Sequence record: OR896824.1
Source: Escherichia phage SmurfNell
Strand: one strand, 5' to 3'
Length of the DNA stretch: 64,000 bases
Part shown: in pieces, positions 47,122 to 60,166 of the stretch
Layout: each line of letters begins with the position of its first letter
How positions within the stretch are numbered: position 1 is the stretch's first letter
Program-made: the position numbers and the translations under genes
The notes under the pieces: model-generated
The model's input: the letters and a program-made list of their open reading frames with translations, nothing else
The model's database searches: none
Told to the model about the DNA's origin: nothing

Positions 47122-47306
47122 TGGAAACATTACTTCTTATATTACTGGGCGGTTCACTCTTAACCATTCTAGGCTTGATAATTGTATGTAGTCGCCTCAA
47201 TGTTAAGAATCTAGAATTAGATAGTGAGAATCAGATTCTTAACCGAGAAATTAAACAACATAATATCGCAGCTCGTAAGCTGTTAGATAAACTGGAGAAT
47301 AGATAA
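47121..47306 (+). CDS. membrane-anchored hypothetical protein
   Basis: N-terminal TM helix LLLILLGGSLLTILGLIIV. Confidence 0.4.
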   Translation: METLLLILLGGSLLTILGLIIVCSRLNVKNLELDSENQILNREIKQHNIAARKLLDKLENR

Positions 47307-47917
47307 TGTTTACACAACAAACCATTAAAGTAGTTGCAGATCATGAACTCGACACATGGGATTACAGCTTTAAAGATCTGACTGCTACAGTACAGTTTAA
47401 ATCTATGCAACTGTCGTTTTTGCACATTGATCTTCAGGCTTGCAAAGAGTTTCAGGCTAAGCTCATGAATGCTCGTAAGATCTTTGGCACGGCTCGCATC
47501 CCGGCTGATAATCTGATTAATGCACTAATCGATGCTGGATACAAACTCGTGAAGACTGAGGTGAACCGCCCGAGTACTCCAGTAACTATTCGAGATCCGT
47601 GGCAGTCAGGGCCAATCGCAATGCTGAATAATTCTGATAAAAGATTAATGTCGGATTTGCACAATGTTCCGTGTGGTGGCGTGGTAAGTAATACGCAATC
47701 ATATAAGTTTGGGGAAGCATCTAGTGTAGACGAGTGGAATAAAGCTGGAGTTGCAATGATGAGTTTCGCAAAGGATCGCGGAGCACAGGAAGACTCCGGA
47801 GTTTCTAGGAATTCGTACACAATTCGTTTAAGCAATCCTAGCAAAGAAGGTGAGCTTGAAGAAATGTTAACGAAAGTATTCGAAGCTATTGATGCAGATA
47901 AGGCTAGAGGTCGTTAA
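47306..47917 (+). CDS. hypothetical protein
   Basis: 203 aa ORF. Confidence 0.5.
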   Translation: MFTQQTIKVVADHELDTWDYSFKDLTATVQFKSMQLSFLHIDLQACKEFQAKLMNARKIFGTARIPADNLINALIDAGYKLVKTEVNRPSTPVTIRDPWQSGPIAMLNNSDKRLMSDLHNVPCGGVVSNTQSYKFGEASSVDEWNKAGVAMMSFAKDRGAQEDSGVSRNSYTIRLSNPSKEGELEEMLTKVFEAIDADKARGR

Positions 47918-48648
47918 TGAAAGATTTGGCAGTAAAATTTAAGAATATTCTAGCCCTCGCTAAGGGGGCTGATCATCGCTGTTTCTCTGATCTAACCGCT
48001 GGGGAGAAACATGCAGTAATGTTTGTTTGTGAGATGTTCCCTGCTAGATGGGAAGGTGGTAAGATTAAGTATGATAACAAAGCTGCAAAAGCTGACCTTG
48101 CTTACTCTTACGTTGATATGAATAAACTTCTCAAGTCTTTAGACCCAACTGCTAAAGGCCACATGGGAAACTATATTCACGTTATTATTGATGAACCTCT
48201 CCCAGCTTATAGAGAAACATCCGCTAGAGAAGCATTAGAAGCATATCCAGAACAATTATACATTCCACCTAAGAAATGTAAGTTCGATCATCTTCCAACA
48301 TTAGCATTTGAAACTAGCATCACATTTGAAGATATTTATAGAACGATTGGAGCTGTAGTAGCACGGATTGCAGTGGCACATTATCGTGATATAGAACTTA
48401 CTACAGCGGAAGATTATATTCTATATGCTATTCATGATGAAAAGGATTCTTTCAAACGTTTAATGGATGCCCTAGGATTAGGTAGTCTCACTGCGCTTGT
48501 GCTTAACCAGGCTCCTAGAACCAAGCGTTATGCAAAAGGATCTATTACTCTCGAAGAAACAGGATCTACATCTTCATTCCTTGCTACATATATTTATCTA
48601 GCATCTAAAGGAATCTATCTAAAGGCTAGAAAGAATGTCACTATATAA
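47917..48648 (+). CDS. hypothetical protein
   Basis: 243 aa ORF. Confidence 0.5.
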   Translation: MKDLAVKFKNILALAKGADHRCFSDLTAGEKHAVMFVCEMFPARWEGGKIKYDNKAAKADLAYSYVDMNKLLKSLDPTAKGHMGNYIHVIIDEPLPAYRETSAREALEAYPEQLYIPPKKCKFDHLPTLAFETSITFEDIYRTIGAVVARIAVAHYRDIELTTAEDYILYAIHDEKDSFKRLMDALGLGSLTALVLNQAPRTKRYAKGSITLEETGSTSSFLATYIYLASKGIYLKARKNVTI

Positions 48649-48991
48649 AGTATATATTCTTGCAAATAGGGATCTGACGAAGATCCCTAAGAGAACAAAG
48701 ATCGGTATTAGTATGAATCCACATAATAGGATTCAAACACTAAACTTAGATAAGATAGTTTATCGAGGTTTTGACGATCTATATGTGTATGGAATCTATG
48801 AAACCCACAATCCTAGAGATCTAGAAGCCGCTGCACATATCTACTTTAAGAAATACCGCTGTAACTTAAAAGGATTCGAAGGATGCACAGAGTTCTTTGA
48901 TATTCACCCACAACTTGCAGAACGATTCCTATTAAATACAGGAGCCAAGAAGATTTACGAACCCAATATCAATCTCGAAGAGGATGTATAA
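48635..48991 (+). CDS. GIY-YIG-related (T5orf172-type) domain protein
   Basis: N-terminal YKVYILAN...KIGISMNPHNR resembles the GIY-YIG-like T5orf172 signature. Confidence 0.35.
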   Translation: MSLYKVYILANRDLTKIPKRTKIGISMNPHNRIQTLNLDKIVYRGFDDLYVYGIYETHNPRDLEAAAHIYFKKYRCNLKGFEGCTEFFDIHPQLAERFLLNTGAKKIYEPNINLEEDV

Positions 48992-49008
48992 ACGTTAACA
49001 AAATCTTC

Positions 49009-49038
49009 TTGACAACTCATTGTGGCACATGTTATAAT
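49009..49038 (+). promoter_or_regulatory. sigma70-type promoter (TTGACA-18-TATAAT) facing the repeat region
   Basis: Perfect hexamers; no ORF follows. Confidence 0.5.
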
Positions 49039-49078
49039 AATCTCATAGATTAAAAACAACTCTTGTTTTGAACTCTAG

Positions 49079-49190
49079 GGGCGATGATTATTACACTTAG
49101 TATTACGTCTATACGTTGCGACAGCACGAGTATAGATCTAATTACTAAGTCTTCCGTAATACTCACGCGCCCCACGGGTAAGCTCTCATG
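49079..49190 (+). other. large imperfect hairpin, candidate small RNA or processing/terminator structure
   Basis: Nested inverted repeats GGGGCG...AGTATTACG / CGTAATACT...CGCCCC and CTATAC/GTATAG, followed by T-rich tract. Confidence 0.3.
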
Positions 49191-49316
49191 AAATGGGGGC
49201 TACTTTACTTTTTATTTATATGAATATATTTAAAGGCAATATTAACGTTCAAGATGATACACCTGTTGCCGCTCATCTGCTAGGATGGCTCAACACTTTC
49301 TTCTAGACTCCTAAGT

Positions 49317-49420
49317 TTCTAGGAAAACTCTCGCCAACTCAGGCGGTTTTCATGTTCCTAGAAACTCCAGCAATAGGTGGTTTAATACAGGGCGGTTATA
49401 GGGAGGGCGGTTATTTCTAG
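49317..49420. repeat. short direct repeats (GGCGGTT-type and TTCTAGRAA-type)
   Basis: GGCGGTT at about 49333, 49390 and 49405; TTCTAGGA/TTCTAGAA at about 49317, 49356, 49415 and 49477. Confidence 0.45.
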
Positions 49421-49456
49421 GAGACATTTTTTGAAAACACATTTCTGGAAATTACT

Positions 49457-50059
49457 GTCGGATTTGCACACTGTGTTTCTAGAAATTTATGGTCGGATTT
49501 GCACATTGATAGGAGTCTCCAAAGTTTTTAGGAACACTGAAAATAGCAGCATTATTTCGGGCCGAAGGCCCATGTTTGCCTGAGTTTTTTAGAGTCCCAG
49601 GAATTTTCACTTGTCAAGCTATTTTGCCCCATTTTGCTAATAAAATTTCGCAGAATCTCCACTTATCTCAATTCTATCCAAAACATCCCACATTATCCCC
49701 AAAAACGCAGCAAACCGGTGCTGAAGCACCACTACAGCTGCACCCTCCATAGTTCCTCCCAAAAACCTCGTCGGATTCGCACTTCTCCCCAAACCCACAC
49801 AATCACACACCCTCTCATCGAAGTCACAAAAATATTCCTGAAACCATAAATCTGTCTCCTAGCAAACTCATGTCGTATTTGCACATATACGGCTGGATTT
49901 GTGCGCAGCACGAGTCTGCCCGAGTTTTTAGGAAAATTCATTGTCGGATTCGCACACTATAAAAATATTTGCCATCGGATTTGCACACTACCAAAAATTG
50001 TCGGATTCGCACATACACGCTGGCACGTAATCCGTGGGGGCAAATGTCGGATTTGCACA
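49457..50059 (+). repeat. iteron-like array: nine direct copies of 14 bp motif GTCGGATT(T/C)GCACA
   Basis: Copies near 49457, 49492, 49770, 49872, 49893 (degenerate), 49943, 49974, 50000 and 50046, all in the same orientation. Confidence 0.7.
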
Positions 50060-50095
50060 AAAGCGCAGGGCAAATAGAAAATGCCCTGCCTGCCG

Positions 50096-50258
50096 AAATG
50101 CAAATGATAATGAGATTGATTCGCATTTGAGAAGTTGAATGCGAATGCGAATGAGAATAGTTATCATTTGACTACCGGAATACGAATGAGAATGATTCGC
50201 ATTTAGGAAGGGAAACGCGAATGATAATGAGAATGATTCGCATTTAGGAAGCGAAGTG
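50096..50258 (+). repeat. three direct repeats of about 27 bp, GA(A/T)TGAGAATGATTCGCATTTAGGAAG-like
   Basis: Copies near 50108, 50184 and 50228; each contains inverted GCGAAT/ATTCGC arms. Confidence 0.6.
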
Positions 50259-50277
50259 AGAAACACTGTTATTTAAG

Positions 50278-50286
50278 TTATCCACA
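50278..50286 (+). promoter_or_regulatory. DnaA box (TTATCCACA)
   Basis: Exact match to the consensus DnaA box. Confidence 0.5.
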
Positions 50287-50368
50287 GGTTTATTAACAGC
50301 ACGATTTGACTTGACAAAATCCTAGCGATTTTGAGGCGTTTTCAACAGACTTATCAACAGGTTATTCT

Positions 50369-50386
50369 ACTGTATATTTATACAGT
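50369..50386. repeat. 18 bp palindrome ACTGTATATTTATACAGT (copy 1)
   Basis: Perfect dyad symmetry; core repeated at 54387. Confidence 0.6.
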
Positions 50387-50418
50387 ATTTCTGTGTAGTG
50401 AATAACTCTAATATAGCT

Positions 50419-50448
50419 CTAAAACGCTCTGTAACGCATTCTAACGCG
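50419..50448 (+). repeat. 30 bp direct repeat CTAAAACGCTCTGTAACGCATTCTAACGCG (copy 1)
   Basis: Near-identical copy at 54811-54842. Confidence 0.6.
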
Positions 50449-50533
50449 TTTATTTTTGGAGGAGGTATTTTAATAAGGGGAAATTTGTTTGCAGGCAGAA
50501 AAGGCGGGGCCAGATAGTTGCGCCCCGTTATTA

Positions 50534-50728
50534 TTAGTCTGGTAGTCGATGTGTGATCTTTTCGCTTTCGCCGTAGGAGTCTACCAAATGTTGATAGTAA
50601 CCATCGTTATCATAAATCACTTTATCATAATCGCCACGCTCCACCACTTGCCGATTTTCCCGCGTATCAGGCACAAAGAAAGTATCAACGGTAACAGTAG
50701 TTTTAGTTACAACAATTTTATCACTCAT
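50534..50728 (-). CDS. hypothetical protein
   Basis: 64 aa ORF, first gene of the minus-strand cassette. Confidence 0.4.
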   Translation of the reverse strand: MSDKIVVTKTTVTVDTFFVPDTRENRQVVERGDYDKVIYDNDGYYQHLVDSYGESEKITHRLPD

Positions 50729-50858
50729 AACGCCATCGCTCCTAGAATGAGAATGATTATCAATATCATTGTAAAGCCATTACCAAATCGTAAACGCTGG
50801 GAATGTTTCCCAGCGGTATTATTAGATTTATGGCTTTGTGTTTTTCGCCACCAGCTAT

Positions 50859-51071
50859 TCACGGTTTTAAATTCTCTATAGTTAATTTTGCGCGGATAGT
50901 AATTCCGTATAATTCGCCTCCCTTGTTTCTTACATCAGGTAGCCAGTCCCACAATTCAGGGTATCCGCTTAAAATTCCTAGCGATGCAAGATTAGCAATA
51001 AAACCGGCTATAGTAACCGCTTCCAGTGAAATAGTTACACGATTATTAATAACTAAAGTAAACTTTTTCAT
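50859..51071 (-). CDS. hypothetical protein
   Basis: 70 aa ORF. Confidence 0.4.
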   Translation of the reverse strand: MKKFTLVINNRVTISLEAVTIAGFIANLASLGILSGYPELWDWLPDVRNKGGELYGITIRAKLTIENLKP

Positions 51072-51412
51072 TGCGCCACCTTTCGAAACGCTGTTTCGAT
51101 ACTTTCAGCGGTTGATTGAATATACGCGCCTTTCATAATCAGGCGCTCCGTACATACTTTGCGGAAAATGTCAATAAATTCATTTTCATTTTCCGCTATT
51201 AACGCTTCCCCCATAACCTGAATATCGCATGAGTTAAAAGTAAGAAACTGAAAGGCAAGCTCGCGAGCGACAACGGCAGAAACTTTATAATGTGCTTTGC
51301 CTTCATAGATATTAACCACGCCTTTATAAACTGGTGAAAGCTGATTTAAATAGTTTGCTAACAATGCCGGACGGCAATTAGCAACAAAACGATTGCCCTC
51401 ATAAATAACCAT
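51068..51412 (-). CDS. hypothetical protein
   Basis: 114 aa ORF, translationally coupled to the downstream gene. Confidence 0.5.
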   Translation of the reverse strand: MVIYEGNRFVANCRPALLANYLNQLSPVYKGVVNIYEGKAHYKVSAVVARELAFQFLTFNSCDIQVMGEALIAENENEFIDIFRKVCTERLIMKGAYIQSTAESIETAFRKVAQ

Positions 51413-51521
51413 TTGTCAACCTCCTAAAGCTGGGAAAATATCATGTACATTTTTAAAACAAATGCGGCGACGGAACATACAACGCCAACGGTAGCAAACG
51501 CTAGAGCAATATATAAGGATC

Positions 51522-51734
51522 TCATAATACCCCACGAAACGCAGCGTAAAAAGTAGCAAAGTGTTTAACCGTTTCGGCTATCAAATTGCCACGCTTGTCA
51601 AATTTCTTTTCTGTAACACGGAAAGCGTTTTTGTTGCGTGCTACATATTCGATTTTACAATCTGGACGCTCGAACGTGTTAACATCCACCAGCTTAAAAC
51701 CTTTGTAACGGGCAAGGGAAACATTCTTTAACAT
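51522..51734 (-). CDS. hypothetical protein
   Basis: 70 aa basic ORF. Confidence 0.45.
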   Translation of the reverse strand: MLKNVSLARYKGFKLVDVNTFERPDCKIEYVARNKNAFRVTEKKFDKRGNLIAETVKHFATFYAAFRGVL

Positions 51735-51736
51735 TT

Positions 51737-51886
51737 TTATTCCCCTTTACCAGTCATACAGCCTAACAAGTAAGAAAACCCCGCGATACCTGCTCCAATA
51801 ATAACCACGTTAACGCCGAAAGCTATTACAAACAGTGATAAAATAGCGCCCAAGATACTAGCTAGAATAGATCGAAAAATAACCAT
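51737..51886 (-). CDS. small membrane peptide
   Basis: Hydrophobic ORF below the track cutoff, read from the minus strand. Confidence 0.3.
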   Translation of the reverse strand: MVIFRSILASILGAILSLFVIAFGVNVVIIGAGIAGFSYLLGCMTGKGE

Positions 51887-51932
51887 TTTATTAGCTCCTA
51901 GAAATTAGGGGATAATATACCCCCTTTATTAA

Positions 51933-52160
51933 TTACATTAAAACAATTTTTGCCGCTTGCTTTTTAGTGCAATGGTTAGCTTTCAATTCATCCAGCAAAA
52001 ATCCGGCGGTTTGCTGGTCAATCTTGTCATTGTCGTAAAGCCCCTGAATGGTAACATAAGTTTTACCTATGCCGAACTCAGAAACCATAACGCTGACAAT
52101 AGCGGGAACGGATACCCATTCCATACCGTTAAAAATTGCAGAAGATGATGAATGTACCAT
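51933..52160 (-). CDS. hypothetical protein
   Basis: 75 aa ORF. Confidence 0.4.
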   Translation of the reverse strand: MVHSSSSAIFNGMEWVSVPAIVSVMVSEFGIGKTYVTIQGLYDNDKIDQQTAGFLLDELKANHCTKKQAAKIVLM

Positions 52161-52209
52161 TTTAACGCCTCCTAGAAATCAGGGAAAATTTTCAACCCAC
52201 CGTTTCGGT

Positions 52210-52245
52210 GTAAAGGCATTATAACAAAAAAGGTCGCCATAATAG
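52210..52245 (-). terminator. rho-independent terminator (minus strand)
   Basis: AGGTCGCC...GGCGACCT hairpin with a T-run on the minus strand. Confidence 0.5.
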
Positions 52246-52267
52246 GCGACCTTTACAAAACTTTACA

Positions 52268-52762
52268 TTAGACTATTTCTAATGCTTCAACATTAAAACA
52301 GCGTTTTAGTTCTTTCTGTAAAACGGCATATTCATCCCAACGGGAATTATCAGGAATATAAACAAGCTGTTTTAATCGGTTTGCGTATAATAACGCCTTG
52401 TTACCAATTATTTCCGCGCCACCGTGTTTAATAATTAGTTTCATAACGGTATTAATAGGATCGCCACCATTTACATAAGTACCGGACTTACTCAATTGAT
52501 AATGATAAAGACTCGCATATACATTATCATTTTCAATCCATTCCCCTGTTTCTTCATCTTCTTCCCCATCGCTACCGAAACGAGAAGCATTATCATATGC
52601 GTGTTCGTTCGCGAAAGCGTCCAGATCACAGCCAGTGGGAACAAAATGTTCCTCCGTCCAGCCTTCCCCACAATAGCCAGTGTGACAATCAACTAAAACG
52701 ATCATATCGTGTTTAGCTTCACTCACACTTTCTAGCGAAAAGCCATATTTTTCTTCTGACAT
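52268..52762 (-). CDS. acidic hypothetical protein
   Basis: 164 aa, Asp/Glu-rich. Confidence 0.5.
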   Translation of the reverse strand: MSEEKYGFSLESVSEAKHDMIVLVDCHTGYCGEGWTEEHFVPTGCDLDAFANEHAYDNASRFGSDGEEDEETGEWIENDNVYASLYHYQLSKSGTYVNGGDPINTVMKLIIKHGGAEIIGNKALLYANRLKQLVYIPDNSRWDEYAVLQKELKRCFNVEALEIV

Positions 52763-52775
52763 AATTAGTCTCCTA

Positions 52776-53084
52776 TTAATTAGCAGGGAAATAAAGAGAA
52801 TTTGCTACACCGTAAAACCCTTTATTCAAGAAAATTACGTCATCACGGACTATTTCATCCACTCCATAATCCAGCAAAGTTTCACCTGCAAAAATACATA
52901 GCCAGCCATAACCACGATCAAAGAAAGCATGATAATTATTAGCGCTTTCTACATGTTCCCATAAAAAGGGACGCCCTTGCTTTTCCCATACAGGAATATT
53001 GATTTTATCATCTGAATAATTAACGTGGGGGCTATTCGGCATTTTTTCGGCTAATTGCGTCAACATGATTTGATTCAGTTGCAT
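52776..53084 (-). CDS. hypothetical protein
   Basis: 102 aa ORF. Confidence 0.5.
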   Translation of the reverse strand: MQLNQIMLTQLAEKMPNSPHVNYSDDKINIPVWEKQGRPFLWEHVESANNYHAFFDRGYGWLCIFAGETLLDYGVDEIVRDDVIFLNKGFYGVANSLYFPAN

Positions 53085-53135
53085 AATAAGTAGTCTCCTA
53101 ACAATTAACAGGGAAATAATCCCCGCTAGTAATTA

Positions 53136-54137
53136 TTATTCTGTTTCGGTGTTAGTGGTAAAGGTAGAAATATCGATACCTTTTACCATTTCGTCGATCA
53201 TTTCCGCAATATTGAAACTCTGTACCATTTCCAACATTGCCGCTTCCATTGCCGCGCCTGCTACCGCTTTCGCTTTCTGATTAGTCGGGGCGTACTGGTC
53301 AACCGCTACGCTTAACAGGTTAGTGATCACTACGCGACCAATCGGAGTATCAATATAACCTTTAATCATAAACGGCGCTTTTTTAGCCGCTACTTTTGTG
53401 ATTTGAGTCAATGCAATTTTACCCGCTTCCAGTTTAGCAGCGTTTACAACGGCAGATTTGTTAGCAGCAACGATAGAAGATACTTTAGACATAATATTTC
53501 CTTTATTTTCAGTAGTTTGCGCATTTGCGCTTGAAGTTTGAGAGTTTACAGCCTGTTTTGCTACGTTGTCAAGCGGTAAAAGTGTAAATCCAGCATTTGC
53601 AACGTTTGATTCATTCCCATACTCTAAATAATCGTTAGGGATCAACATGTTACCGCTAGCGCGTTCAAAGCACAATACGCCAGTTGTTTCGATTGCGTCA
53701 CTATCAGCACCTTTATAACTGGATGATAATTCACGCCAGATACTATTTAATAACGATCCGACACTATCCAATCTGATATTATTTATTTTTGTTGCTGTTA
53801 CCTGCTCCTTTTCTTGCACGTTATATAATCGCGCAATGTAACCACTATGAGACTCACTATAACCAACAATGATAAAATCAATATCAGTTCCCCGACTATT
53901 ACGGAAAATGTGATAATCACGGTTGAAAATTACTAGCGCCCTTGTCTGGTCTAGTAATAGCGTGAAATCATCGACTGAATAATGAGTATCATTATTATCT
54001 AAAATATCCTCGTGAATTTTTTCAACCATTGCGGCGGTGTGCTGAATACTTGCCGCACTACTACCATCTAGCAGGTTGCGCAAACTACCTTTAACAATAG
54101 TTGCGTTTGCTGGTACTGCAATTCTTACAGTAGACAT
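53136..54137 (-). CDS. hypothetical protein
   Basis: 333 aa ORF, first gene of the leftward unit. Confidence 0.55.
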   Translation of the reverse strand: MSTVRIAVPANATIVKGSLRNLLDGSSAASIQHTAAMVEKIHEDILDNNDTHYSVDDFTLLLDQTRALVIFNRDYHIFRNSRGTDIDFIIVGYSESHSGYIARLYNVQEKEQVTATKINNIRLDSVGSLLNSIWRELSSSYKGADSDAIETTGVLCFERASGNMLIPNDYLEYGNESNVANAGFTLLPLDNVAKQAVNSQTSSANAQTTENKGNIMSKVSSIVAANKSAVVNAAKLEAGKIALTQITKVAAKKAPFMIKGYIDTPIGRVVITNLLSVAVDQYAPTNQKAKAVAGAAMEAAMLEMVQSFNIAEMIDEMVKGIDISTFTTNTETE

Positions 54138-54386
54138 TTCTTTGTCTCCATCATTAATCGGTGAGTGAATGATATAGATAATTGTTCGCTAGGGGCAAGA
54201 AAAAAGAAAAGGTTTTTTATTCCTTGCCTAACGCTTGTTTTTATGCTAATCGCGCGTTTTCTATTTCTAGCTATCTGTAAGCGTACACAAGGCTTTATTA
54301 TAATAAGGGTAGCAGTGAGAAAACGCCGTGTAGCGTGTTCTAGGCCGCTTAAATTTGATTGCGGTTGTTACTGCTACCATTCTACC

Positions 54387-54402
54387 CTGTATATTTATAC
54401 AG
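54387..54402. repeat. palindrome CTGTATATTTATACAG (copy 2)
   Basis: Same dyad core as 50369-50386. Confidence 0.6.
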
Positions 54403-54424
54403 TAGGATAACCTGTATATAAGTC

Positions 54425-54433
54425 TGTGGATAA
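54425..54433 (-). promoter_or_regulatory. DnaA box (TGTGGATAA)
   Basis: Exact reverse complement of TTATCCACA. Confidence 0.5.
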
Positions 54434-54473
54434 GTCGCCAAATCGTCGCCTATTGCGTCAAGTTATTTTGTGC

Positions 54474-54482
54474 TGTGGATAA
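54474..54482 (-). promoter_or_regulatory. DnaA box (TGTGGATAA)
   Basis: Second exact copy 49 bp from the first; one-mismatch copy AGTGGATAA near 54758. Confidence 0.5.
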
Positions 54483-54810
54483 CTTTGTGAATAACCTAAA
54501 TGATAGTGGTTCTCACTTAGCCGATAGTTTCTTATAGTTATTATTTCTCTTTAATTTATATGTATATTATATAATATAAAATAGTTAGTTGGCTAATAGG
54601 TTTTTAGAGTATTAATAGTCTGCTAACTGTTTCGGCTGTTACAATCCACCAGCGTGATCATCATCCTAGCGATTATTAGTCTGCTAATGATCTGATACAC
54701 GTCCAGACTTATTTGTCAATGCAAAATAATAGCAGAAAATACTTTTTTGAAAAATCAAGTGGATAACTCATTAAATTTCATTTTTGCTTTTTGTATAAGT
54801 TATTAACAGC

Positions 54811-54842
54811 CCCTAAAACGCTCTGTAAGCGATTCTAAGCGC
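54811..54842 (+). repeat. 30 bp direct repeat (copy 2)
   Basis: CCTAAAACGCTCTGTAAGCGATTCTAAGCGCC, near-identical to 50419-50448. Confidence 0.6.
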
Positions 54843-55244
54843 CTCAAAGGAAAAGATAAGCAATCATAAGGGGTACACCGAGAAAACCTCACCACGAGGA
54901 TTTTAGATTTTGTCAAGTAGGCAAGAGCAGATATAAATGAAAAAATTACTTGCTAAAATGGTTGTTTTAGTGTTATTCGCGCGCTCGTTTCATTAAATTT
55001 AGTGCGCCGCTGGATGTTTGCGGAGACTGGTTTTCTTTACGTTTCTTTACAAAAATAAGGTTGCGCCCTTCTCGGTATTCTCCTATTATTTATCACGTAG
55101 GGCGGCAATGACGAACTACACGGCGGGGATAACAGCGATTGACAGTCTGTTTGACCTTTCAAAACCCTGCCATGCTCTTTAAAAATTAGGGAACATCTTA
55201 AAGCCTATCGGCGGTAAACTTAGATATTATAAGGAATCGACGAT

Positions 55245-55454
55245 ATGAAACAAACGCTTTTGATCACTGGCAAGCCTATCAAGTCACTTGATAGCAGAAC
55301 AAAAAATTTGTTGACAGTAGCGCAAAGATCGGTAAAATACCGATTCAAGCAATACAAGAAAGGTAAGCAGCAAGGTCTGGAAATGGTGTGGCGTAATATA
55401 ATGATTGATTTATATAACTCACATCAAATCGAAAAAAGTTTAAAAAACGCTTGA
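55245..55454 (+). CDS. hypothetical protein
   Basis: 69 aa basic ORF with AAGGAA RBS. Confidence 0.4.
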   Translation: MKQTLLITGKPIKSLDSRTKNLLTVAQRSVKYRFKQYKKGKQQGLEMVWRNIMIDLYNSHQIEKSLKNA

Positions 55455-55620
55455 CACGCTAGCCGATAGGTTTTAAGATGTTCCCCGTAGTAACTGCTCT
55501 TTAACAATTTGGAAAAACGGTAATGTTTAGGCTAACTCCTAGCGGATTATAATCTAATAGCGTTTCAAAGTATCGAGGCGCTATTGTGGAATAATCCCCC
55601 AATAAACCGGAGTATTAAAA

Positions 55621-55872
55621 ATGCAAAACGTTATTACCGCGCCGAAAGTAGGTCAATCTGTATTCATTCCTTTTGTTACTAAAACGGATGAATTAACCGG
55701 AAAAGTCGAACGTATTAAAGGTGCGGCGCTTGATCCTTTCGATAAAATCGAAGCGGTCTACGCGGAAACGGAACGTAGCAACAACGGCAAGCCTATTTAT
55801 AATGTTCGCGTTAAATCTGGCGACGTTGTAAAGATCATTCAGAAGGATGATAAATGGCAAGCCATAGCATAA
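55621..55872 (+). CDS. hypothetical protein
   Basis: 83 aa ORF. Confidence 0.45.
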   Translation: MQNVITAPKVGQSVFIPFVTKTDELTGKVERIKGAALDPFDKIEAVYAETERSNNGKPIYNVRVKSGDVVKIIQKDDKWQAIA

Positions 55873-55972
55873 ATTAGTGTTACTTTTATATTCCCCTGAA
55901 ATATGGGGAATATATGGATTAACATTAGTTAATCATAATCCCTTAATTAATAATTGAATGGAGTATTAAATT

Positions 55973-56389
55973 ATGTCTAACGTTAAAACCGAAAAAACCG
56001 CAAAATTCTCTTGGAGCGAAGAAAACACCGAAAAAGCTGTTTCTATGTATTCTGAAATGGTTGCTAAAAGCGGCATTGAATTTGCTAACAGTGACGGCCT
56101 AAAAGAAATTGCCGCCGCCGTTGGCGCTGCTAGTCCGGTGTCTGTACGTTCTAAACTGACAAGCGCAAAAGCGTACCAGAAAAGTGATAAACCGCGTAAA
56201 GTTGGCGGCGGGTCTAGTGTCCGTAAAGCTCACTATGTGCGCGTCATTGCTAAACATGCCATTGATAGCGGCATTGTAAAAGACGCTGACGATCTGGCAA
56301 GTCTTGAAAGTGCAAAACTGGAAACGCTGGACGCCGTAGCGCAATTGTTAGGCGTAGCGGAGGAAGTAAAACAGGCCGCAGGTGAATAA
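55973..56389 (+). CDS. hypothetical protein
   Basis: 138 aa ORF. Confidence 0.5.
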   Translation: MSNVKTEKTAKFSWSEENTEKAVSMYSEMVAKSGIEFANSDGLKEIAAAVGAASPVSVRSKLTSAKAYQKSDKPRKVGGGSSVRKAHYVRVIAKHAIDSGIVKDADDLASLESAKLETLDAVAQLLGVAEEVKQAAGE

Positions 56390-56429
56390 ATTTTAATTAG
56401 CGGGGAATATTCCCCGCTATAATTTCCCT

Positions 56430-56675
56430 TTGACCGGAGTTATTAAAATGATTTTCTTTCCTAGTGAAGCGTTTATTTTAGGTTTATTTATAGTTGCCGC
56501 TATATTTATATTTAATTACGGCAAATATATAATCTCTATTATCGGCATTAATTCAGCTTATGCCGCTGATATGTTTAAACGTCAAGCTAATAAACAAAAA
56601 TATCTGGCGATTATATTTTTAACGCTGGCTATTAGTTGCGGGTTTAGTTCTAGTCTTATGCCAATTCTAGAATAA
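56430..56675 (+). CDS. small membrane protein
   Basis: Two TM helices. Confidence 0.45.
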   Translation: MTGVIKMIFFPSEAFILGLFIVAAIFIFNYGKYIISIIGINSAYAADMFKRQANKQKYLAIIFLTLAISCGFSSSLMPILE

Positions 56676-56783
56676 TATTGCAAATTATAACGCCTTTTAA
56701 ATTGTCCTCACTTCAGGCAAGGCGTTATATTTGGCAATATTGCCAGTATTAATATTTATCCCTTTATAGGAGTTGATTTAGTT

Positions 56784-58448
56784 ATGAATATTTCCGCAGA
56801 AAAACAAGCTCAAATTCTGAAAATGGCCGCAGATTTTAACTTCTACGGTAAGCGTTTACGCGCTACTAAATTGGAAGTTTGCGACGATATTTCAAAAGCT
56901 GTTTATGATACGCCGAAACATTCGACCGCAATTTGTGACTGGCTGGAAGCAAATAAGCCAGCGAAACCTAAAGCGGCAAAAGCTGAAAAGGCGATTAAAA
57001 ATGATGATCGCCCCGAAGCGGCGGGAATTGTTTCTAGTACCGTTGAACAATGGGAAGTTAAATCCGGTCGCCGTTTTATTCTAACGTCGATTCAAAATAA
57101 TACTTTCCCGCATAAAAACTTTTTAGCAAGTCTGGAAAAATTCGCTGAATATTGCGGCGCTGAATTGCTGATTAGTAAATTCATTTATAATAAAAATGGA
57201 TTCCAGAACGGGGAAGGGGCAAACGGTATTAAATACGATCCCGCATTTGATAAATATGTTTGTGATAAAAACGTATTTTTAAATAACCGCCGCTTTGCTT
57301 TCATGGCTGAAATTAACGTTTTACCAACGGCAGATTATCCGCTTTCAGGATTCGCAGAAACCGCCACGGCTTTAAATATCGAAGGTCTGGCAATTGGTCA
57401 CGCAAAAATTACCGCTGAAAGTGTTCCCGCGCTTAAAGGTGAAGTAGTGCGCCGTATGTATTCAACCGGAACGGCTACGCTTAAAAACTACATTCAGCAG
57501 AAAGCAGGTCAAAAAGCTGAGGCTTTACATAATTACGGCGCTTTGCTGGTGGAGTTCGACGACGACGGAGAATTTTATTGCCGCCAGCTTGAAACAATGG
57601 ATGAAAGCGGAATGTTCTATGATTTGAATGTTTGCGCTATGCCTACCGGATGTTTTGAAACGTCCGATCATGTTCTAGGCTTGCAATATGGCGATATTCA
57701 CGCCGAAAAACTAGATGATGATTGCGCCGTCGCTTCATGGGCTAGTGAAAACAGCTTGCTTGATATTCTTAAACCGAAATATCAATTTATTCATGATGTG
57801 CATGATTTTACATCGCGTAACCATCACAACCGCGCTAGTGGTGTATTCCTTGCGAAACAATACGCCGCCGGACGTGATAAAGTTATTGATGATCTTATTG
57901 ATACGGGTCGCGTATTAGAGTCTATGGAGCGTGATTTCTCTCAAACAATCATTGTGGAATCTAACCATGATTTAGCTCTTTCACGCTGGCTTGATGATCG
58001 TAACGCTAACATTAAAGATGATCCCGCAAACGCGGAATTGTATCACCGTCTAAACGCTGCGATTTACGCCGCTATTGCTGAAAAAGATGATACCTTTAAC
58101 GTGCTAGATTACGCCTTGCGTAGTGTCGCAGGTTGCGAATTTAACGCTATTTTCCTGACTACTGACCAGTCATTTAAAATCGCTGGCATTGAATGCGGCG
58201 TACACGGTCACAATGGCATTAACGGCAGTCGGGGCAATCCTAAGCAGTTTAAAAAGTTGGGACGCCTTAACACTGGTCACACTCACACGGCTAGCATTTA
58301 CGGCGGCGTTTATACCGCTGGCGTGGCGGGGTCGCTTGATATGGGCTACAACGTGGGCGCGTCAAGCTGGACGCAAACGCATTTAATTACCTATGCAAAC
58401 GGGCAACGTACTTTGATTGATTTCAAAAACGGTAAATTCTTTGCATAA
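56784..58448 (+). CDS. A1-like pre-early protein with metallophosphoesterase motifs
   Basis: 554 aa; GDIH, SNHD and GHTH motifs; size and context resemble T5 A1 (recalled as about 556 aa). Confidence 0.5.
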   Translation: MNISAEKQAQILKMAADFNFYGKRLRATKLEVCDDISKAVYDTPKHSTAICDWLEANKPAKPKAAKAEKAIKNDDRPEAAGIVSSTVEQWEVKSGRRFILTSIQNNTFPHKNFLASLEKFAEYCGAELLISKFIYNKNGFQNGEGANGIKYDPAFDKYVCDKNVFLNNRRFAFMAEINVLPTADYPLSGFAETATALNIEGLAIGHAKITAESVPALKGEVVRRMYSTGTATLKNYIQQKAGQKAEALHNYGALLVEFDDDGEFYCRQLETMDESGMFYDLNVCAMPTGCFETSDHVLGLQYGDIHAEKLDDDCAVASWASENSLLDILKPKYQFIHDVHDFTSRNHHNRASGVFLAKQYAAGRDKVIDDLIDTGRVLESMERDFSQTIIVESNHDLALSRWLDDRNANIKDDPANAELYHRLNAAIYAAIAEKDDTFNVLDYALRSVAGCEFNAIFLTTDQSFKIAGIECGVHGHNGINGSRGNPKQFKKLGRLNTGHTHTASIYGGVYTAGVAGSLDMGYNVGASSWTQTHLITYANGQRTLIDFKNGKFFA

Positions 58449-58500
58449 TTAAATTTAATCGGCGGTTGAAATATACCGCCATTAATAAAAGGTTTATTAA

Positions 58501-58758
58501 ATGAATATTGTATTACCTAAAACACTGGATAAAAAGCAGTATATAACGCCGGATGATATGGAATGCGGCAAGGTATACCAATTCGATTATATGTTGGCTA
58601 GTCCGACGAATACAGGTTGTATTATTGCAGTTGATACCCGTGATAATGACGTATTAACGTTTAATGATTATTCTGACTTTATGGAATGGTTAGATGATCA
58701 AAGTATTACTAATAACGGCGAATTAACGCCGTATCAATTAACAATTGCAATTAAATAA
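58501..58758 (+). CDS. hypothetical protein
   Basis: 85 aa ORF. Confidence 0.45.
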   Translation: MNIVLPKTLDKKQYITPDDMECGKVYQFDYMLASPTNTGCIIAVDTRDNDVLTFNDYSDFMEWLDDQSITNNGELTPYQLTIAIK

Positions 58759-58794
58759 GTTAATCCCGTAATTAAATAATCTGGAGTCATAAAC

Positions 58795-59187
58795 ATGAAA
58801 AACCAAAACATTCCTTTTGATCGTGCTACTTCTTCCATCGTTCTAGTTTATTCTAATGGCGAACGTTATCACGTCGAGGCGGGGCAAGTTAATTTCGATT
58901 TGCTGAATTATAACGACGCTTTGCAGGTTACTACCTTTGCTTATGATACCGGCAAAGTGGCAAGCCATACAAAAGCAAAAGGCGTTTACGCTGATACTTT
59001 GACAGTGCAAACAATTATTATTGATGCGCTTAAATCCGGTCTAGCGTTTGCAGTTGTTAAGCCGTGTCCGGTCTGCAATCCCGAAGCTAGCGCGATGGTT
59101 TACACTTGCGCGGGGATTCGCTCTAGCGTACATGGTGAAGATCTTAGCTTTATCGCCGATGCTCTCGCTTTTGGTCTGGCGTTCTAA
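58795..59187 (+). CDS. hypothetical pre-early protein
   Basis: 130 aa ORF between the A1-like and HAD phosphatase genes. Confidence 0.45.
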   Translation: MKNQNIPFDRATSSIVLVYSNGERYHVEAGQVNFDLLNYNDALQVTTFAYDTGKVASHTKAKGVYADTLTVQTIIIDALKSGLAFAVVKPCPVCNPEASAMVYTCAGIRSSVHGEDLSFIADALAFGLAF

Positions 59188-59274
59188 TAGTTAATTGAAC
59201 ATTGCCAGCTAATCTAATATAATTAGCTGGCAAGATTGAATTAACCTAAATCCCTTAAATGGAGAATGTAACAA

Positions 59275-60009
59275 ATGAATCAAGTCAATATGAATATTAC
59301 CCGCACTTTCCCGCATATTTCCCGCGTTATGATTTGGGATTTAGACGGTACAATCATTAACTCAATGCACCGTGTCGGGCCTTGTTTTGATGATAATGGG
59401 AATTTAGATTTAAATAAATATTCCCGCGAAGCCTGCAAGCATGATTTAATTATGCAGGATTCTTTATTGCCATTGGTTGAATATATGCGCCAATGTATGA
59501 ATGATCCCAATACCTTAAACCTTATTTGTACCGCTCGCTTAATGGGTAAATCTGATTATTATTTCTTGCGTAAACAAAGTCTAAGAGGGCGCGGAAATAG
59601 TAATATTCGCGTATTTTCCCGCGATACATTACATAAATACTTTGAAGCTGGTAAGGTTAGCGAAATATATCACAGCAAAGACGCTGTATATAAGTCTTAT
59701 TACTTTGAACTGTTTAAACAGCTATATCCTAACGCTGATTTTACGATGATTGATGATCATAAAGGTGTATTATCAGCGGCGGCAAGTGCTGGATTTAAAA
59801 CGCTGGACGCTCAAGCCGTTAACGATATCCTATCAATCGGCGTAACATTGATCGGTGAAACCTTTATTGATGAATCGCTTGATGATGATAACGATTATCA
59901 ATTCCTAGCCGAACGTTTAAAAATGTGTTGGGAAGGTATGACCGAGGAAGAACGCGAGGAATATAGTACCACACCTCAACAATTCATTGATAAATTAAAA
60001 GTTGCCTAA
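59275..60009 (+). CDS. HAD-superfamily 5'-deoxynucleotidase-like (Dmp-like)
   Basis: HAD motif I IWDLDGTII near the N-terminus; 244 aa. Confidence 0.5.
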   Translation: MNQVNMNITRTFPHISRVMIWDLDGTIINSMHRVGPCFDDNGNLDLNKYSREACKHDLIMQDSLLPLVEYMRQCMNDPNTLNLICTARLMGKSDYYFLRKQSLRGRGNSNIRVFSRDTLHKYFEAGKVSEIYHSKDAVYKSYYFELFKQLYPNADFTMIDDHKGVLSAAASAGFKTLDAQAVNDILSIGVTLIGETFIDESLDDDNDYQFLAERLKMCWEGMTEEEREEYSTTPQQFIDKLKVA

Positions 60010-60166
60010 CAATTAAAAATAAAATAGTCACACTGTGTAATGATAACATGGTGTGACTATTAGCTTGCTAAGTAAGGGGCGGTAATGAGACTCATTCTCA
60101 TCTAGGGAACCTCTGGGCACACCTTCATGTGTAATCTTATGAGATTTGGCAAAAGTCAAATTAGCG

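What the first reader, a model, noticed from the sequence alone, without database searches (positions are those of the whole stretch)
49457..50258. Two adjacent direct-repeat arrays (nine 14 bp iterons plus three 27 bp repeats) in an ORF-free 1.2 kb region
Nine same-orientation copies of GTCGGATT(T/C)GCACA at irregular spacing are followed by three copies of a 27 bp GAATGAGAATGATTCGCATTTAGGAAG-like unit with internal dyad symmetry. Upstream are GGCGGTT and TTCTAGAA repeats. Such density suggests cooperative binding sites for a DNA-binding protein: replication initiator, partition-like protein, injection-stop factor or transcriptional silencer.
Basis: seen in the sequence. Interest (0 to 1): 0.6.

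Follow-up and report, generated by a model that had tools for sequence, protein, structure and literature searches.

The report
T5 injection-stop region repeats, re-examined
The two repeat arrays are real, but they are the long-known, already annotated "direct repeats D and C" of the phage T5 injection-stop region; their function is still unknown, and comparison across the family gives new testable leads (D repeats flank the end of the virion DNA, C repeats look like host Fur sites).

Summary
Observation confirmed with small corrections. There are eight clear same-strand copies of (T)GTCGGATTYGCACA (49456-50059), one degenerate ninth copy, and four (not three) ~20-27 bp dyad units (50109-50245). 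They lie in a ~1.5 kb gene-free gap.

The window is a T5-like phage. The region is homologous to T5 "Repeat Region 3", the injection stop signal (iss) region. The 14-mer is the reverse complement of T5 "direct repeat D" (nine copies annotated in GenBank AY587007). The 27-mer is "direct repeat C" (four copies). The finding is therefore already known, and the literature assigns these repeats no function.

New here:
1. The D array straddles the right end of the ~10.5 kb terminal repeat (window 49592), with 2-3 copies outside and 5-7 inside.
2. All copies are on one strand (221:1).
3. This layout holds from T5 to Vibrio phages (A1 31% identical), although individual copies have moved.
4. The innermost copy is almost always followed by the GCGC nick motif.
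5. The C units score like genuine Fur operators and sit beside DnaA boxes and a near-perfect LexA box.

Best reading: D repeats are polar protein-binding sites marking the genome terminus (packaging or terminus processing, or transfer restart). C repeats belong to a host-protein-binding stop or regulatory module.

The parts
49316..49534 (.). Cluster of TTTCTAGRAA-like short palindromic sites (49316, 49355, 49414, 49442, 49476, 49525; one more at 49925)
   Evidence: local cluster only, not enriched window-wide
49342..49414 (+). GGCGGTT repeats, including two exact AGGGCGGTTAT copies (49389-99, 49404-14)
   Evidence: The pair is conserved in L052, L034, Roth50 and AAS21; Stubb has one copy
49456..49505 (+). 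Outer DRD cluster, outside the terminal repeat: TGTCGGATTTGCACA (49456-70, = T5 DRD8) and GGTCGGATTTGCACA (49491-505, = T5 DRD7). T5 DRD9 is deleted here (44-bp gap at 49326)
   Evidence: Nearly invariant in the 21-phage alignment
49540..49640 (.). Near-invariant block holding the right terminus of the terminal repeat (cut between 49591 and 49592: ...TTTTTTA|GAGTCCCAGG...), with GC hairpin GGGCCGAAGGCCC at 49559-71
   Evidence: T5 LTR end 10139 aligns here. Six independent contigs end exactly here. Sepoy's PhageTerm boundary maps to 49592. Conservation
49550..49924 (+). C-rich, G-poor strand-asymmetric stretch just inside the terminus (homologue of T5 DRA, TTTGGGG-like on the other strand)
   Evidence: GC skew -0.33 to -0.53; alignment to T5
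49769..50059 (+). Inner DRD cluster, inside the terminal repeat. Six copies: 49769-83 (absent in T5), 49871-85 (DRD5), 49942-56 (DRD4), 49973-87 (DRD3), 49999-50013 (DRD2), 50045-59 (DRD1). T5 DRD6 is lost here. Degenerate relic at ~49892-905
50062..50089 (+). Homologue of the T5 major 7.9% single-strand nick site (A^GCGCAGGG, 50062-70), overlapping hairpin GCAGGGCA-N9-TGCCCTGC (T5 palindrome J)
   Evidence: T5 annotation 'major single-stranded nick 1, 7.9%' at 9661-9668. DRD1-(2-4 nt)-PuGCGC in 26 of 28 phages
50101..50251 (.). DRC array: four imperfectly palindromic units AATGAGAATGATTCGCATTT (50109-28, 50150-69, 50185-204, 50226-45), each Fur-box-like
   Evidence: T5 'direct repeat C copies 1-4'. 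Fur weight-matrix scores 12.7-16.1 against a median of 15.3 for real operators; 6 positions >=12 against 0.024 expected
50253..50388 (.). IRC'-spacer-IRD' module: DnaA box TTATCCACA (50278-86), DnaA-like TTATTAACA (50290-98) and TTATCAACA (50351-59), and LexA-type SOS box TACTGTATATTTATACAGTA (50368-87, T5 palindrome D)
   Evidence: DnaA boxes described by Davison 2020. The LexA match (19/20) is not mentioned there
47649..47663 (+). Extra exact DRD copy inside the ORF 47306-47917 (encodes MSDLH); a 2-mismatch copy at 47412-26 encodes LSFLH. Membership of the system is uncertain
   Evidence: A copy at the same relative distance is present in many relatives

Best explanation
This is the T5-family 'Repeat Region 3', the non-coding injection-stop-signal (iss) region at the right end of the long terminal repeat. 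That identification is essentially certain. It consists of two separable modules. Module 1, the 14-15 bp D repeats: a strictly one-stranded (polar) array of sites, (T)RTCGG-AWWY-GCACA preceded by an A-tract, for one sequence-specific protein that binds an asymmetric site. The protein is probably phage-encoded and conserved across the family; candidates are the small terminase and the pre-early DNA-binding protein A2. The array is split into an outer and an inner cluster flanking the exact point where the virion DNA ends (49591|49592), and its last copy abuts the conserved GCGC nick site. I infer that it marks this terminus for the machinery that acts there. The most likely role is recognition of the concatemer junction by terminase, for the initiating cut and for generation of the terminal repeat. 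The left end enters the cell first, so by the last-in-first-out rule the right end should be packaged first. This would work like lambda cosB R sites next to cosN. Module 2, the C repeats: an array of 19-bp dyads that match the host Fur operator. Together with the adjacent DnaA boxes and a LexA box, they form a landing pad for abundant host DNA-binding proteins on the part of the DNA that is inside the cell when transfer pauses. This module, not the D array, is the better candidate for the stop or regulatory signal. Shown: homology, positions, polarity, conservation and motif statistics. Inferred: every protein assignment and both functions.
For: Identity: 517 phage records match, and one labels the stretch 'similar to DNA injection stop signal'. 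Davison 2020 describes the region and gives D and C no role. Terminus: T5 LTR end 10139 maps to 49592, six contigs end there, and Sepoy's PhageTerm boundary maps to exactly 49592. In 21 T5-like phages there are 2-3 outer copies ending 86-87 bp from the terminus and 5-7 inner copies. Polarity: 221 sites on one strand against 1 on the other. Deep conservation with turnover: the same core in two clusters around the terminus block in L052, L034, Klebsiella Roth50 and Pantoea AAS21. The core also flanks or overlaps the known terminus in Vibrio phage AG74 (exact 7,130-bp repeat, 4-5 copies each side) and in V. cholerae phage phi 3, where the terminus is inside the array. Exact copies occur nowhere else in whole T5-like contigs. 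DRD1 is followed by PuGCGC in 26 of 28 phages. Not a DnaA box: A replaces T1 in 95% of copies, C replaces T4 in 24%, and the bases DnaA does not read are invariant. Precedent: TerS binds cooperatively to repeated cosB sites beside the cut site (PMC13595911). Long terminal repeats are made from a recognised fixed position by extension from staggered nicks (PMC5557969). Fur: weight matrix from 11 published iron boxes (PMC10665472). DRC units score 12.7-16.1, and 24 of 25 relatives have a DRC site >=15 (T5 20.3), against a real-operator median of 15.3. The null for the array is 0.024 positions >=12 against 6 observed. LexA box 19/20, chance 0.01. LexA and DnaA boxes are at the same place in Stubb, AG74 and phi 3.
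Against: No binding protein has been identified, and nothing here tests binding. Packaging direction and the terminase recognition site of T5 are not established in the literature I could reach; the right-end-first argument rests on a general rule. No terminase gene is adjacent in the window. The left terminus (60119) has no D repeats, so a D-dependent mechanism would serve only one of the two cuts. Proteus phage Stubb keeps A1, A2 and the nick/Fur/DnaA/LexA module but has only one diverged D-like copy, so a large array is dispensable in at least one lineage. The terminus and the iss are only ~500 bp apart in every phage, so comparative data cannot separate a packaging role from a transfer-restart role. 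The Fur-like array is replaced by unrelated tandem repeats in the Vibrio phages, so the occupant of that slot may instead be a lineage-specific phage protein whose site merely resembles a Fur box. The Fur matrix is built from only 11 sites.
Confidence: 0.42

Rival explanations
1. Both arrays are parts of the injection stop signal proper. The D repeats are bound by the pre-early A2 (or A1-A2) protein, or by a host or membrane component, and act in stopping or, more plausibly, restarting DNA transfer (loading sites for the machinery that pulls in the remaining 92%).
For: The region is the classical iss region. A2 is a known DNA-binding dimer required for second-step transfer (Davison 2020) and is comparatively well conserved (41% between the window and Vibrio AG74, which share the D core). 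Its N-terminal three-helix bundle weakly resembles Myb or homeodomain HTHs that read asymmetric sites (not significant). A strictly polar array suits a directional translocation process. The D copies are the first DNA to enter on restart.
Against: In T5 all D copies lie to the right of the estimated shear point (~9618) and of the 7.9% nick. They are therefore outside the cytoplasm during the pause and cannot be what is held there. The outer cluster lies outside the terminal repeat, and the array is centred on the terminus, not on the stop point, in AG74 and phi 3. Stubb keeps A1 and A2 but lacks the array.
Confidence: 0.3
2. The region is an iteron-type replication origin: D repeats are iterons for a phage initiator (for example the T5.108 'origin binding' helicase), assisted by host DnaA at the adjacent boxes.
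For: The architecture resembles iteron plasmid origins: same-orientation 14-15 bp repeats in irregular clusters plus DnaA boxes. T5 encodes a helicase annotated as origin-binding, matching Pfam Herpes_ori_bp above threshold.
Against: Electron-microscopy mapping places T5 origins near the middle of the genome, and replication genes are not expressed during first-step transfer (Davison 2020). The T5.108 match covers only the helicase core, not a DNA-binding domain. No initiator gene is adjacent. There is no conserved AT-rich unwinding element: the AT-rich stretch at 49200-49225 is unconserved.
Confidence: 0.06
3. The D repeats are weak DnaA boxes, extending the DnaA-box cluster proposed by Davison, so the whole region is a DnaA-titrating or DnaA-anchored element.
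For: The core ATTTGCACA matches 8 of 9 positions of TTWTNCACA. The phi 3 and Roth50 variant TTTTGCAC(A/C) matches 8-9 of 9. Genuine DnaA boxes lie 220-300 bp away.
Against: Position 1 is A in 95% of copies, and the critical T4 is C in 24%. The 'free' position 5 is G in 98%, and the upstream TCGG, irrelevant to DnaA, is the most invariant part. Spacings of 13-380 bp do not fit a DnaA oligomer.
Confidence: 0.05
4. The repeats act at the RNA level or as transcription regulators: a transcribed decoy RNA with repeated protein-binding motifs, or operator sites silencing read-through between the convergent early and pre-early units.
For: One-strand polarity is what an RNA motif would show. A perfect sigma-70 promoter at 49009-49038 points into the region. 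UCGGAU contains the GGA of CsrA-type sites.
Against: A strong structured element with a terminator-like hairpin ends at ~49201, before the arrays. GGA is lost in phi 3 (GGU or AGU). There is no Rfam match. An RNA function does not explain why the array is centred on the DNA terminus.
Confidence: 0.04

Closest known systems
Bacteriophage T5 'Repeat Region 3' / injection stop signal region (direct repeats D x9 and C x4; Heusterspreute 1987, Wang 2005, Davison 2015/2020; GenBank AY587007 features 9194-10409)
   Same: Homologous sequence (76-80% identity over ~1.2 kb). Same order of elements: D7-8, terminus, D1-5, 7.9% nick motif, C1-4, IRC'-spacer-IRD' with DnaA boxes. Same position at the right end of the terminal repeat.
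   Different: Copy turnover only: T5 D6 and D9 are missing here, and one copy (49769-83) is absent in T5. The hairpin after the nick has a longer loop.
Terminase recognition sites beside a cleavage site (lambda cosB R1-R3 next to cosN; from my own knowledge also SPP1 pacL/pacR flanking pacC, and the P1 pac 4+3 hexamers flanking the cut)
   Same: Several short repeated elements within a few hundred bp of the exact DNA end, on one or both sides of the cut; position-specific, not gene-regulatory.
   Different: No terminase binding is shown. The arrays are larger and more spread out (87 bp outside to 470 bp inside). No terS gene is adjacent. The phage has 10 kb direct terminal repeats, not cohesive ends or headful packaging. 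Only one of the two repeat boundaries carries the array.
Iteron-type plasmid origins (for example RK2 oriV: clustered 17-bp iterons plus DnaA boxes; own knowledge)
   Same: Same-orientation 14-17 bp repeats in irregular clusters next to DnaA boxes.
   Different: No adjacent initiator gene. T5 origins map elsewhere. The array is centred on a DNA terminus.
Fur operators ('iron boxes', consensus GATAATGATAATCATTATC; aerobactin-type GATAATGAGAATCATTATT)
   Same: The C units are 19-bp dyads scoring within the range of published operators. T5's own unit TTAAATGAGAATCATTATC shares 15 contiguous bases with a published iron box. Overlapping tandem arrangement as at Fur-polymerising promoters.
   Different: They are not at a promoter for an iron-regulated gene. 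The units are absent from the Vibrio members of the family. Binding is untested.
Short repeat arrays next to the terminal repeats of T7 (SRL/SRR; recalled from Dunn and Studier 1983, not checked here)
   Same: Arrays of short direct repeats adjoining the terminal repeat of a phage with exact direct terminal repeats, suspected to act in concatemer processing.
   Different: Unrelated sequence, much shorter terminal repeat (160 bp), and present at both sides in T7. This is a recollection, not a test.

Membership tests
T5-type iss region / Repeat Region 3 | Sequence homology to T5 9194-10409 | tested here: met
   Global alignment, with long identical blocks; 246 records cover >=80% of the query
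T5-type iss region / Repeat Region 3 | Location at the right end of the long terminal repeat, between convergent pre-early and early genes | tested here: met
   Terminus at 49592. A2, A1 and dmp at 55973-60009. Left end at 60119
T5-type iss region / Repeat Region 3 | Direct repeats D (TGTGCAAATCCGACA) and C, the 7.9% nick motif, and IRD'-spacer-IRC' with DnaA boxes, in the T5 order | tested here: met
T5-type iss region / Repeat Region 3 | Acts in cis to halt DNA transfer after ~8% of the genome | not testable with these tools
   Needs infection experiments. Even in T5 the exact iss is not mapped (PMC10644984)
Terminase recognition (pac/cos-type) site | Repeated elements immediately flanking the mature DNA end | tested here: met
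   2-3 copies outside (86-87 bp) and 5-7 inside in 21 phages. Same in AG74; in phi 3 the terminus is inside the array
Terminase recognition (pac/cos-type) site | Bound by the small terminase and required for packaging | not testable with these tools
   No T5 packaging-signal literature found
Terminase recognition (pac/cos-type) site | Lies in or next to the terminase genes (common, not universal) | tested here: not met
   Neighbouring genes are early or pre-early genes of unknown function and a homing endonuclease. In AG74, terL is ~10 kb away across the terminal repeat
Iteron replication origin | Adjacent initiator gene and a mapped origin | tested here: not met
   No Rep-like neighbour. T5 origins are near the genome centre. 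The T5.108 match is helicase core only
DnaA box (for the D repeats) | 9-mer TT(A/T)TNCACA | tested here: not met
   T1 is A in 95% of 143 unique sites and T4 is C in 24%. Extra invariant bases lie outside or at the free position of the box
Fur box (for the C repeats) | 19-bp dyad matching published operators above chance | tested here: met
   Scores 12.7-16.1 here and up to 22.7 in relatives, against leave-one-out 5.7-24.7 for real boxes. Null 0.024 against 6 positions >=12; P(max>=16.1)=0.001
Fur box (for the C repeats) | Fur binding, iron-dependent | not testable with these tools
   Needs a gel shift or footprint. The Vibrio relatives lack the element

The most novel reading that the evidence does not exclude
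The classical T5 'injection stop region' is really two juxtaposed devices. (a) A family-wide polar array of D sites is the long-sought recognition signal for cutting and packaging at the right genome terminus, and possibly for placing the adjacent nick. (b) A landing pad for three abundant host regulators (LexA, DnaA and, in enterobacterial phages, Fur) is the actual brake or regulatory switch of two-step DNA transfer. That would tie the pause to the host's SOS, replication and iron status.
Probability: 0.25. Interest if true: 0.7.

Novelty: already known. Interest (0 to 1): 0.38.

Why it matters
Two-step DNA transfer by T5 has been unexplained for more than 50 years. [quoted passage not shown] The repeats themselves are not new. 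The comparative picture obtained here divides the region into testable parts: a terminus-flanking polar array conserved from coliphages to vibriophages, and a host-factor module (LexA, DnaA, Fur-like). Each part suggests simple experiments with existing T5 engineering tools. If the D array proves to be the packaging signal, it would also define the terminase recognition site for a large and therapeutically used phage family, and it would improve terminus annotation of their genomes.

Tried and rejected
- Herpesvirus UL9 site resemblance (TTCGCAC within the C-variant of the D repeat): T5.108 matches the Herpes_ori_bp family only in the helicase core, not the DNA-binding domain. Dropped.
- D repeat as a DnaA box: fails position by position.
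- D repeat as a general nick signal: T5's 64.8% nick has no full D copy, and the window's other early regions have none.
- D repeat as a site for other host factors (CRP, IHF, PhoB, NtrC/sigma-54, MatP, marbox, Fis): compared by eye from memory, no convincing match.
- CsrA-sponge RNA idea: GGA is not conserved in phi 3.
- Rfam scan of 48900-50600: only chance-level hits.
- Lineage-specificity argument: after Stubb I first concluded that D was Markadamsvirinae-specific. This was overturned when AG74 and phi 3 proved to carry it.
- The 14-mer scan of viral contigs for the Vibrio variant was too unspecific.
- (megablast of AG74 A2) did not give the second-copy position I wanted.
- Fuzzy-regex anchoring timed out.
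- Single-sequence AlphaFold model of A2 was poor (pLDDT 58), and the Foldseek hits were not significant. This is only a hint of a Myb or homeodomain-like HTH.
- The ORF-internal copies at 47650 and 47413 encode a repeated xSxLH peptide and may be protein-level repeats, so I did not count them as sites.
- Davison 2015 and Wang 2005 could not be read. I therefore cannot exclude that a packaging, Fur or LexA idea was voiced there.
Full report
**1. What is there**

The sequence between the last early gene (stop at 48991) and the first pre-early gene on the other strand (50534-50728) is about 1.5 kb. It holds no ORF longer than 92 aa.

The 14-mer GTCGGATTYGCACA occurs eight times at one mismatch or fewer between 49457 and 50059, always on the + strand. 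A ninth exact copy lies 1.8 kb away inside an ORF (47650). Allowing two mismatches, the 64 kb window has 11 matches against 0.46 expected, and none of 100 shuffles reaches 11. Extended to 15 bases, the copies are at 49456-70, 49491-505, 49769-83, 49871-85, 49942-56, 49973-87, 49999-50013 and 50045-59.

The 27-mer has two near-identical copies. Its 20-nt core, AATGAGAATGATTCGCATTT, occurs four times in direct order (50109, 50150, 50185, 50226). Each unit is an imperfect palindrome.

The GGCGGTT and TTTCTAGRAA elements upstream are present as local clusters.

**2. What genome and what region**

Megablast finds homologous DNA in 517 phage records, all T5-like (Salmonella, Escherichia and Klebsiella phages of the Demerecviridae). 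One record labels the stretch 'similar to DNA injection stop signal on T5st0 mutant'.

The T5 reference record AY587007 annotates 'direct repeat D copy 1-9' (9672-10409), 'direct repeat C copy 1-4' (9468-9637) and 'major single-stranded nick 1, 7.9%' (9661-9668) between them. T5's C repeat is the counterpart of the 27-mer.

A base-by-base alignment gives this map:

| T5 feature | Window position |
|---|---|
| D1 | 50045-59 |
| D2 | 49999-50013 |
| D3 | 49973-87 |
| D4 | 49942-56 |
| D5 | 49871-85 |
| D6 | lost |
| D7 | 49491-505 |
| D8 | 49456-70 |
| D9 | deleted |
| (no T5 counterpart) | 49769-83 |
| 7.9% nick motif | A^GCGCAGGG, 50062-70 |

Davison's 2020 analysis calls this 'Repeat Region 3'. 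It lists the nine D repeats and four C repeats, and it nominates the DnaA-box inverted repeat and the adjoining repeats as the likely stop signal. [quoted passage not shown] Papers from 2023 and 2026 still describe the signal only as a repeat-rich non-coding region, not mapped in most phages.

So the finding is a rediscovery of a known, annotated element whose function is open.

**3. Where it sits relative to the genome ends**

The window contains one collapsed copy of the terminal repeat.

- T5's left-repeat end (10139) aligns to window 49592.
- Six independent contigs, T5 included, end at exactly that homologous base (...TTTTTA|GAGCCACAG...).
- The PhageTerm-determined boundary of Salmonella phage Sepoy also maps to 49592.
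- The other end of the repeat is at 60119/60120.
- A2, A1 and dmp lie at 55973-60009.

The D array therefore straddles the right terminus. Two copies lie outside the repeat, the nearer ending 87 bp from the cut. Six lie inside, the nearest starting 179 bp from the cut.

In all 21 aligned T5-like phages there are 2-3 outer copies at a fixed 86-87 bp and 5-7 inner copies. The 100 bp around the cut are almost invariant. They are followed on the inside by a strongly C-over-G skewed stretch.

**4. The motif**

From 143 unique sites in 25 phages, the motif is (T)RTCGG-ATT(T/C)-GCACA, with an A-tract at -9 to -7. It is asymmetric. There are 221 sites on one strand and 1 on the other.

It resembles a DnaA box (ATTTGCACA against TTWTNCACA) only superficially:

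- The first T is A in 95% of copies.
- The critical fourth T is C in 24%.
- The free fifth position is G in 98%.
- The TCGG outside the box is the most conserved part.

Exact copies occur nowhere else in whole T5-like contigs.

**5. Deeper comparisons**

In more distant relatives the alignment breaks down, but the architecture persists while copies move. Two IMG/VR phages, Klebsiella phage Roth50 (A1 74% identical) and Pantoea phage AAS21 (65%) all show this order: an outer cluster, the terminus block, an inner cluster, GCGCAGG, a C array, then DnaA boxes. Roth50's outer cluster is a regular 27-bp tandem of four.

Proteus phage Stubb (42%) has only one diverged copy (GTCGATTACGCACAT). It sits directly before AG^GCGCAGGG, and the PhageTerm 'repeat end' of that record falls exactly on this nick consensus.

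On that basis I first took the D motif to be specific to one subfamily. That was wrong.

- Vibrio phage AG74 (subfamily Ermolyevavirinae, A1 31%) has about ten same-strand copies of RTCGGATTTGCACCT. They are split by the end of its exactly 7,130-bp terminal repeat, and the last copy is followed by CAG^GCGCAGG.
- Vibrio cholerae phage phi 3 has twelve copies of TC(G/A)GTTTTGCACCTATA at 13-17 bp spacing, with the annotated terminus inside the array.
- The innermost copy is followed within 2-4 nt by PuGCGC(A/G)GG in 26 of 28 phages.
- T5's 64.8% nick lacks a full D copy, so D is not a general nick signal.

**6. The C repeats and their neighbours**

The C unit looked like the Fur operator, so I tested that.

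- Against the consensus GATAATGATAATCATTATC, the window has 32 matches of >=14/19 against 5.5 expected.
- The 7-1-7 form gives 16 matches against 1.9 expected, 12 of them in the terminal repeat.
- A weight matrix built from eleven published iron boxes (PMC10665472) scores the real boxes 5.7-24.7 in leave-one-out (median 15.3) and the C units 12.7-16.1.
- The C array has six positions >=12 against 0.024 expected, and P(max >= 16.1) = 0.001.
- The terminal repeat as a whole has five loci >=15 against 0.06 expected.
- 24 of 25 relatives have a C-array site >=15. T5 has 20.3 and 18.4, the latter sharing 15 contiguous bases with a published operator.

Next to the C array lie the known DnaA boxes. 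T5's 'palindrome D' (TACTGTATATTTATACAGTA, 50368-87) matches the LexA SOS-box consensus at 19 of 20 positions. A second copy of its core is at 54385 in the other inverted-repeat module. Chance expectation is 0.01.

Davison's text mentions neither LexA nor Fur, and no paper in the library links either to T5.

LexA and DnaA boxes occupy the same place in Stubb, AG74 and phi 3. The Fur-like element is present in Stubb but is replaced by unrelated tandem repeats in the two Vibrio phages.

**7. How it most likely works**

Shown:

- Two arrays of conserved, statistically non-random sites.
- The D array is polar, family-wide, centred on the right DNA terminus and abutting the nick.
- The C array is Fur-like and belongs with the LexA and DnaA boxes.

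Inferred: in T5 the D copies lie to the right of the shear point (~9618) and of the nick. They are therefore not yet in the cytoplasm during the pause and are poor candidates for the brake. Their constant association with the terminus, despite copy turnover, points to the machinery that acts there.

The standard model for such genomes is recognition of a fixed position followed by repeat generation from staggered nicks. Terminases typically recognise repeated sites beside the cut. The left end enters the cell first, so the right end should be packaged first, which puts the initiation site where the D array is. I rate a terminus or packaging role at about 0.4 and a role in restarting transfer (A2 or A1-A2 loading) at about 0.3. 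Smaller shares go to origin, DnaA and RNA-level ideas.

The C array together with the DnaA and LexA boxes lies on DNA that is inside the cell at the pause. It is the better candidate for a stop or regulatory module operated by host proteins. The alternative is a lineage-specific phage protein, because Vibrio phages carry a different repeat in that slot.

**8. Limits**

Nothing here tests binding or function.

- The terminus and the stop point are only about 500 bp apart in every genome, so comparison cannot separate packaging from transfer.
- Stubb shows that a large D array is dispensable in one lineage.
- The left terminus has no D copies.
- The Fur matrix rests on eleven sites.
- I could not read Wang 2005, Davison 2015 or Heusterspreute 1987. 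Some of the 'new' points may have been noted there.

**9. Verdict**

The element is already known and annotated (T5 direct repeats D and C in the injection-stop region). Interest is moderate. It comes from the unresolved function and from the testable leads above, not from novelty of the feature.

Noticed in passing
window 50368-50387 and 54385-54404: Near-perfect LexA SOS boxes (TACTGTATATTTATACAGTA, 19/20 to consensus; the core CTGTATATTTATACAG is repeated at 54387), one in each of the two inverted-repeat modules of the terminal repeat. Chance expectation is 0.01. The same box sits at the same place in T5, Stubb, AG74 and phi 3. It is not mentioned in the T5 literature I could read.
   Followed up: partly
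window 50743-50767, 53978-53996, 59881-59905, 60081-60099: Strong Fur-box-like sites elsewhere in the terminal repeat (weight-matrix scores 20.8, 19.0, 18.2 and 19.2; five loci >=15 in 10.5 kb against 0.06 expected, and only two in the other 53.5 kb). The 50749 site (17/19 to consensus) lies just upstream of the ribosome-binding site of the pre-early ORF 50534-50728.
   Followed up: partly
window 49009-49212 (+): A perfect sigma-70 promoter (TTGACA-18-TATAAT with TG) is followed by a 167-nt very stably folded stretch (-58 kcal/mol, z = -6.8) ending in a terminator-like hairpin. This is a candidate small RNA between the early genes and the repeat region. It has no Rfam match and aligns poorly with T5.
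   Followed up: partly
window 49592-60119: The window contains a single collapsed copy of the ~10.5 kb terminal repeat and runs on into DNA that in T5 precedes the right repeat, so the source assembly is circularly permuted. The left-end element AGATGAGAATGAGTCTCATTACCG (60077-60103) is conserved in Vibrio phage AG74, whose genome starts with it.
   Followed up: partly
L071 (Proteus phage Stubb NC_048086) 4346-4370: The 'terminal repeat predicted with PhageTerm' ends exactly at the Pu^GCGC nick consensus (AG|GCGCAGGG). A block homologous to the T5-type terminus lies ~700 bp further out (~3598-3670). The annotated repeat end may be the major nick, not the true terminus.
   Followed up: no
window 47412-47426 and 47649-47663: Two D-like sequences inside the ORF 47306-47917 (phrog_5271, unknown function) encode LSFLH and MSDLH. 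The exact one is conserved at the same distance in many relatives. It is unclear whether these are binding sites or a protein-level repeat.
   Followed up: partly
L074 (T5 AY543070) around 78573: T5's 64.8% major nick reads GGTCGGTGG^GCGCGGGCAAAT, and the 7.9% site reads TGTCGG...AAAA^GCGCAGGGCAAAT. The nick sites may share more than the published PuGCGC core (GTCGG upstream, GGGCAAAT downstream).
   Followed up: no
window 55973-56389 (A2): A2 starts with a W-S-E-E motif. A low-confidence model shows an N-terminal three-helix bundle whose best (non-significant) structural neighbours are Myb and homeodomain DNA-binding domains. A2 is 41% identical between this phage and Vibrio phage AG74, more conserved than A1 (31%).
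   Followed up: partly
L076 (Vibrio phage AG74) 7066-7155; L100 (phi 3) ~7350-7500: In the slot occupied by the Fur-like C repeats in enterobacterial phages, AG74 has six 15-bp tandem units (CTAYATTAGYGATCM, containing GATC) and phi 3 has four ~39-bp tandem units. The slot is conserved but its content is lineage-specific.
   Followed up: no
window 48635-48991: A T5orf172/MUG113-type homing endonuclease gene directly abuts the non-coding region. It is annotated as a putative homing endonuclease in Sepoy and is absent at this position in T5.
   Followed up: no
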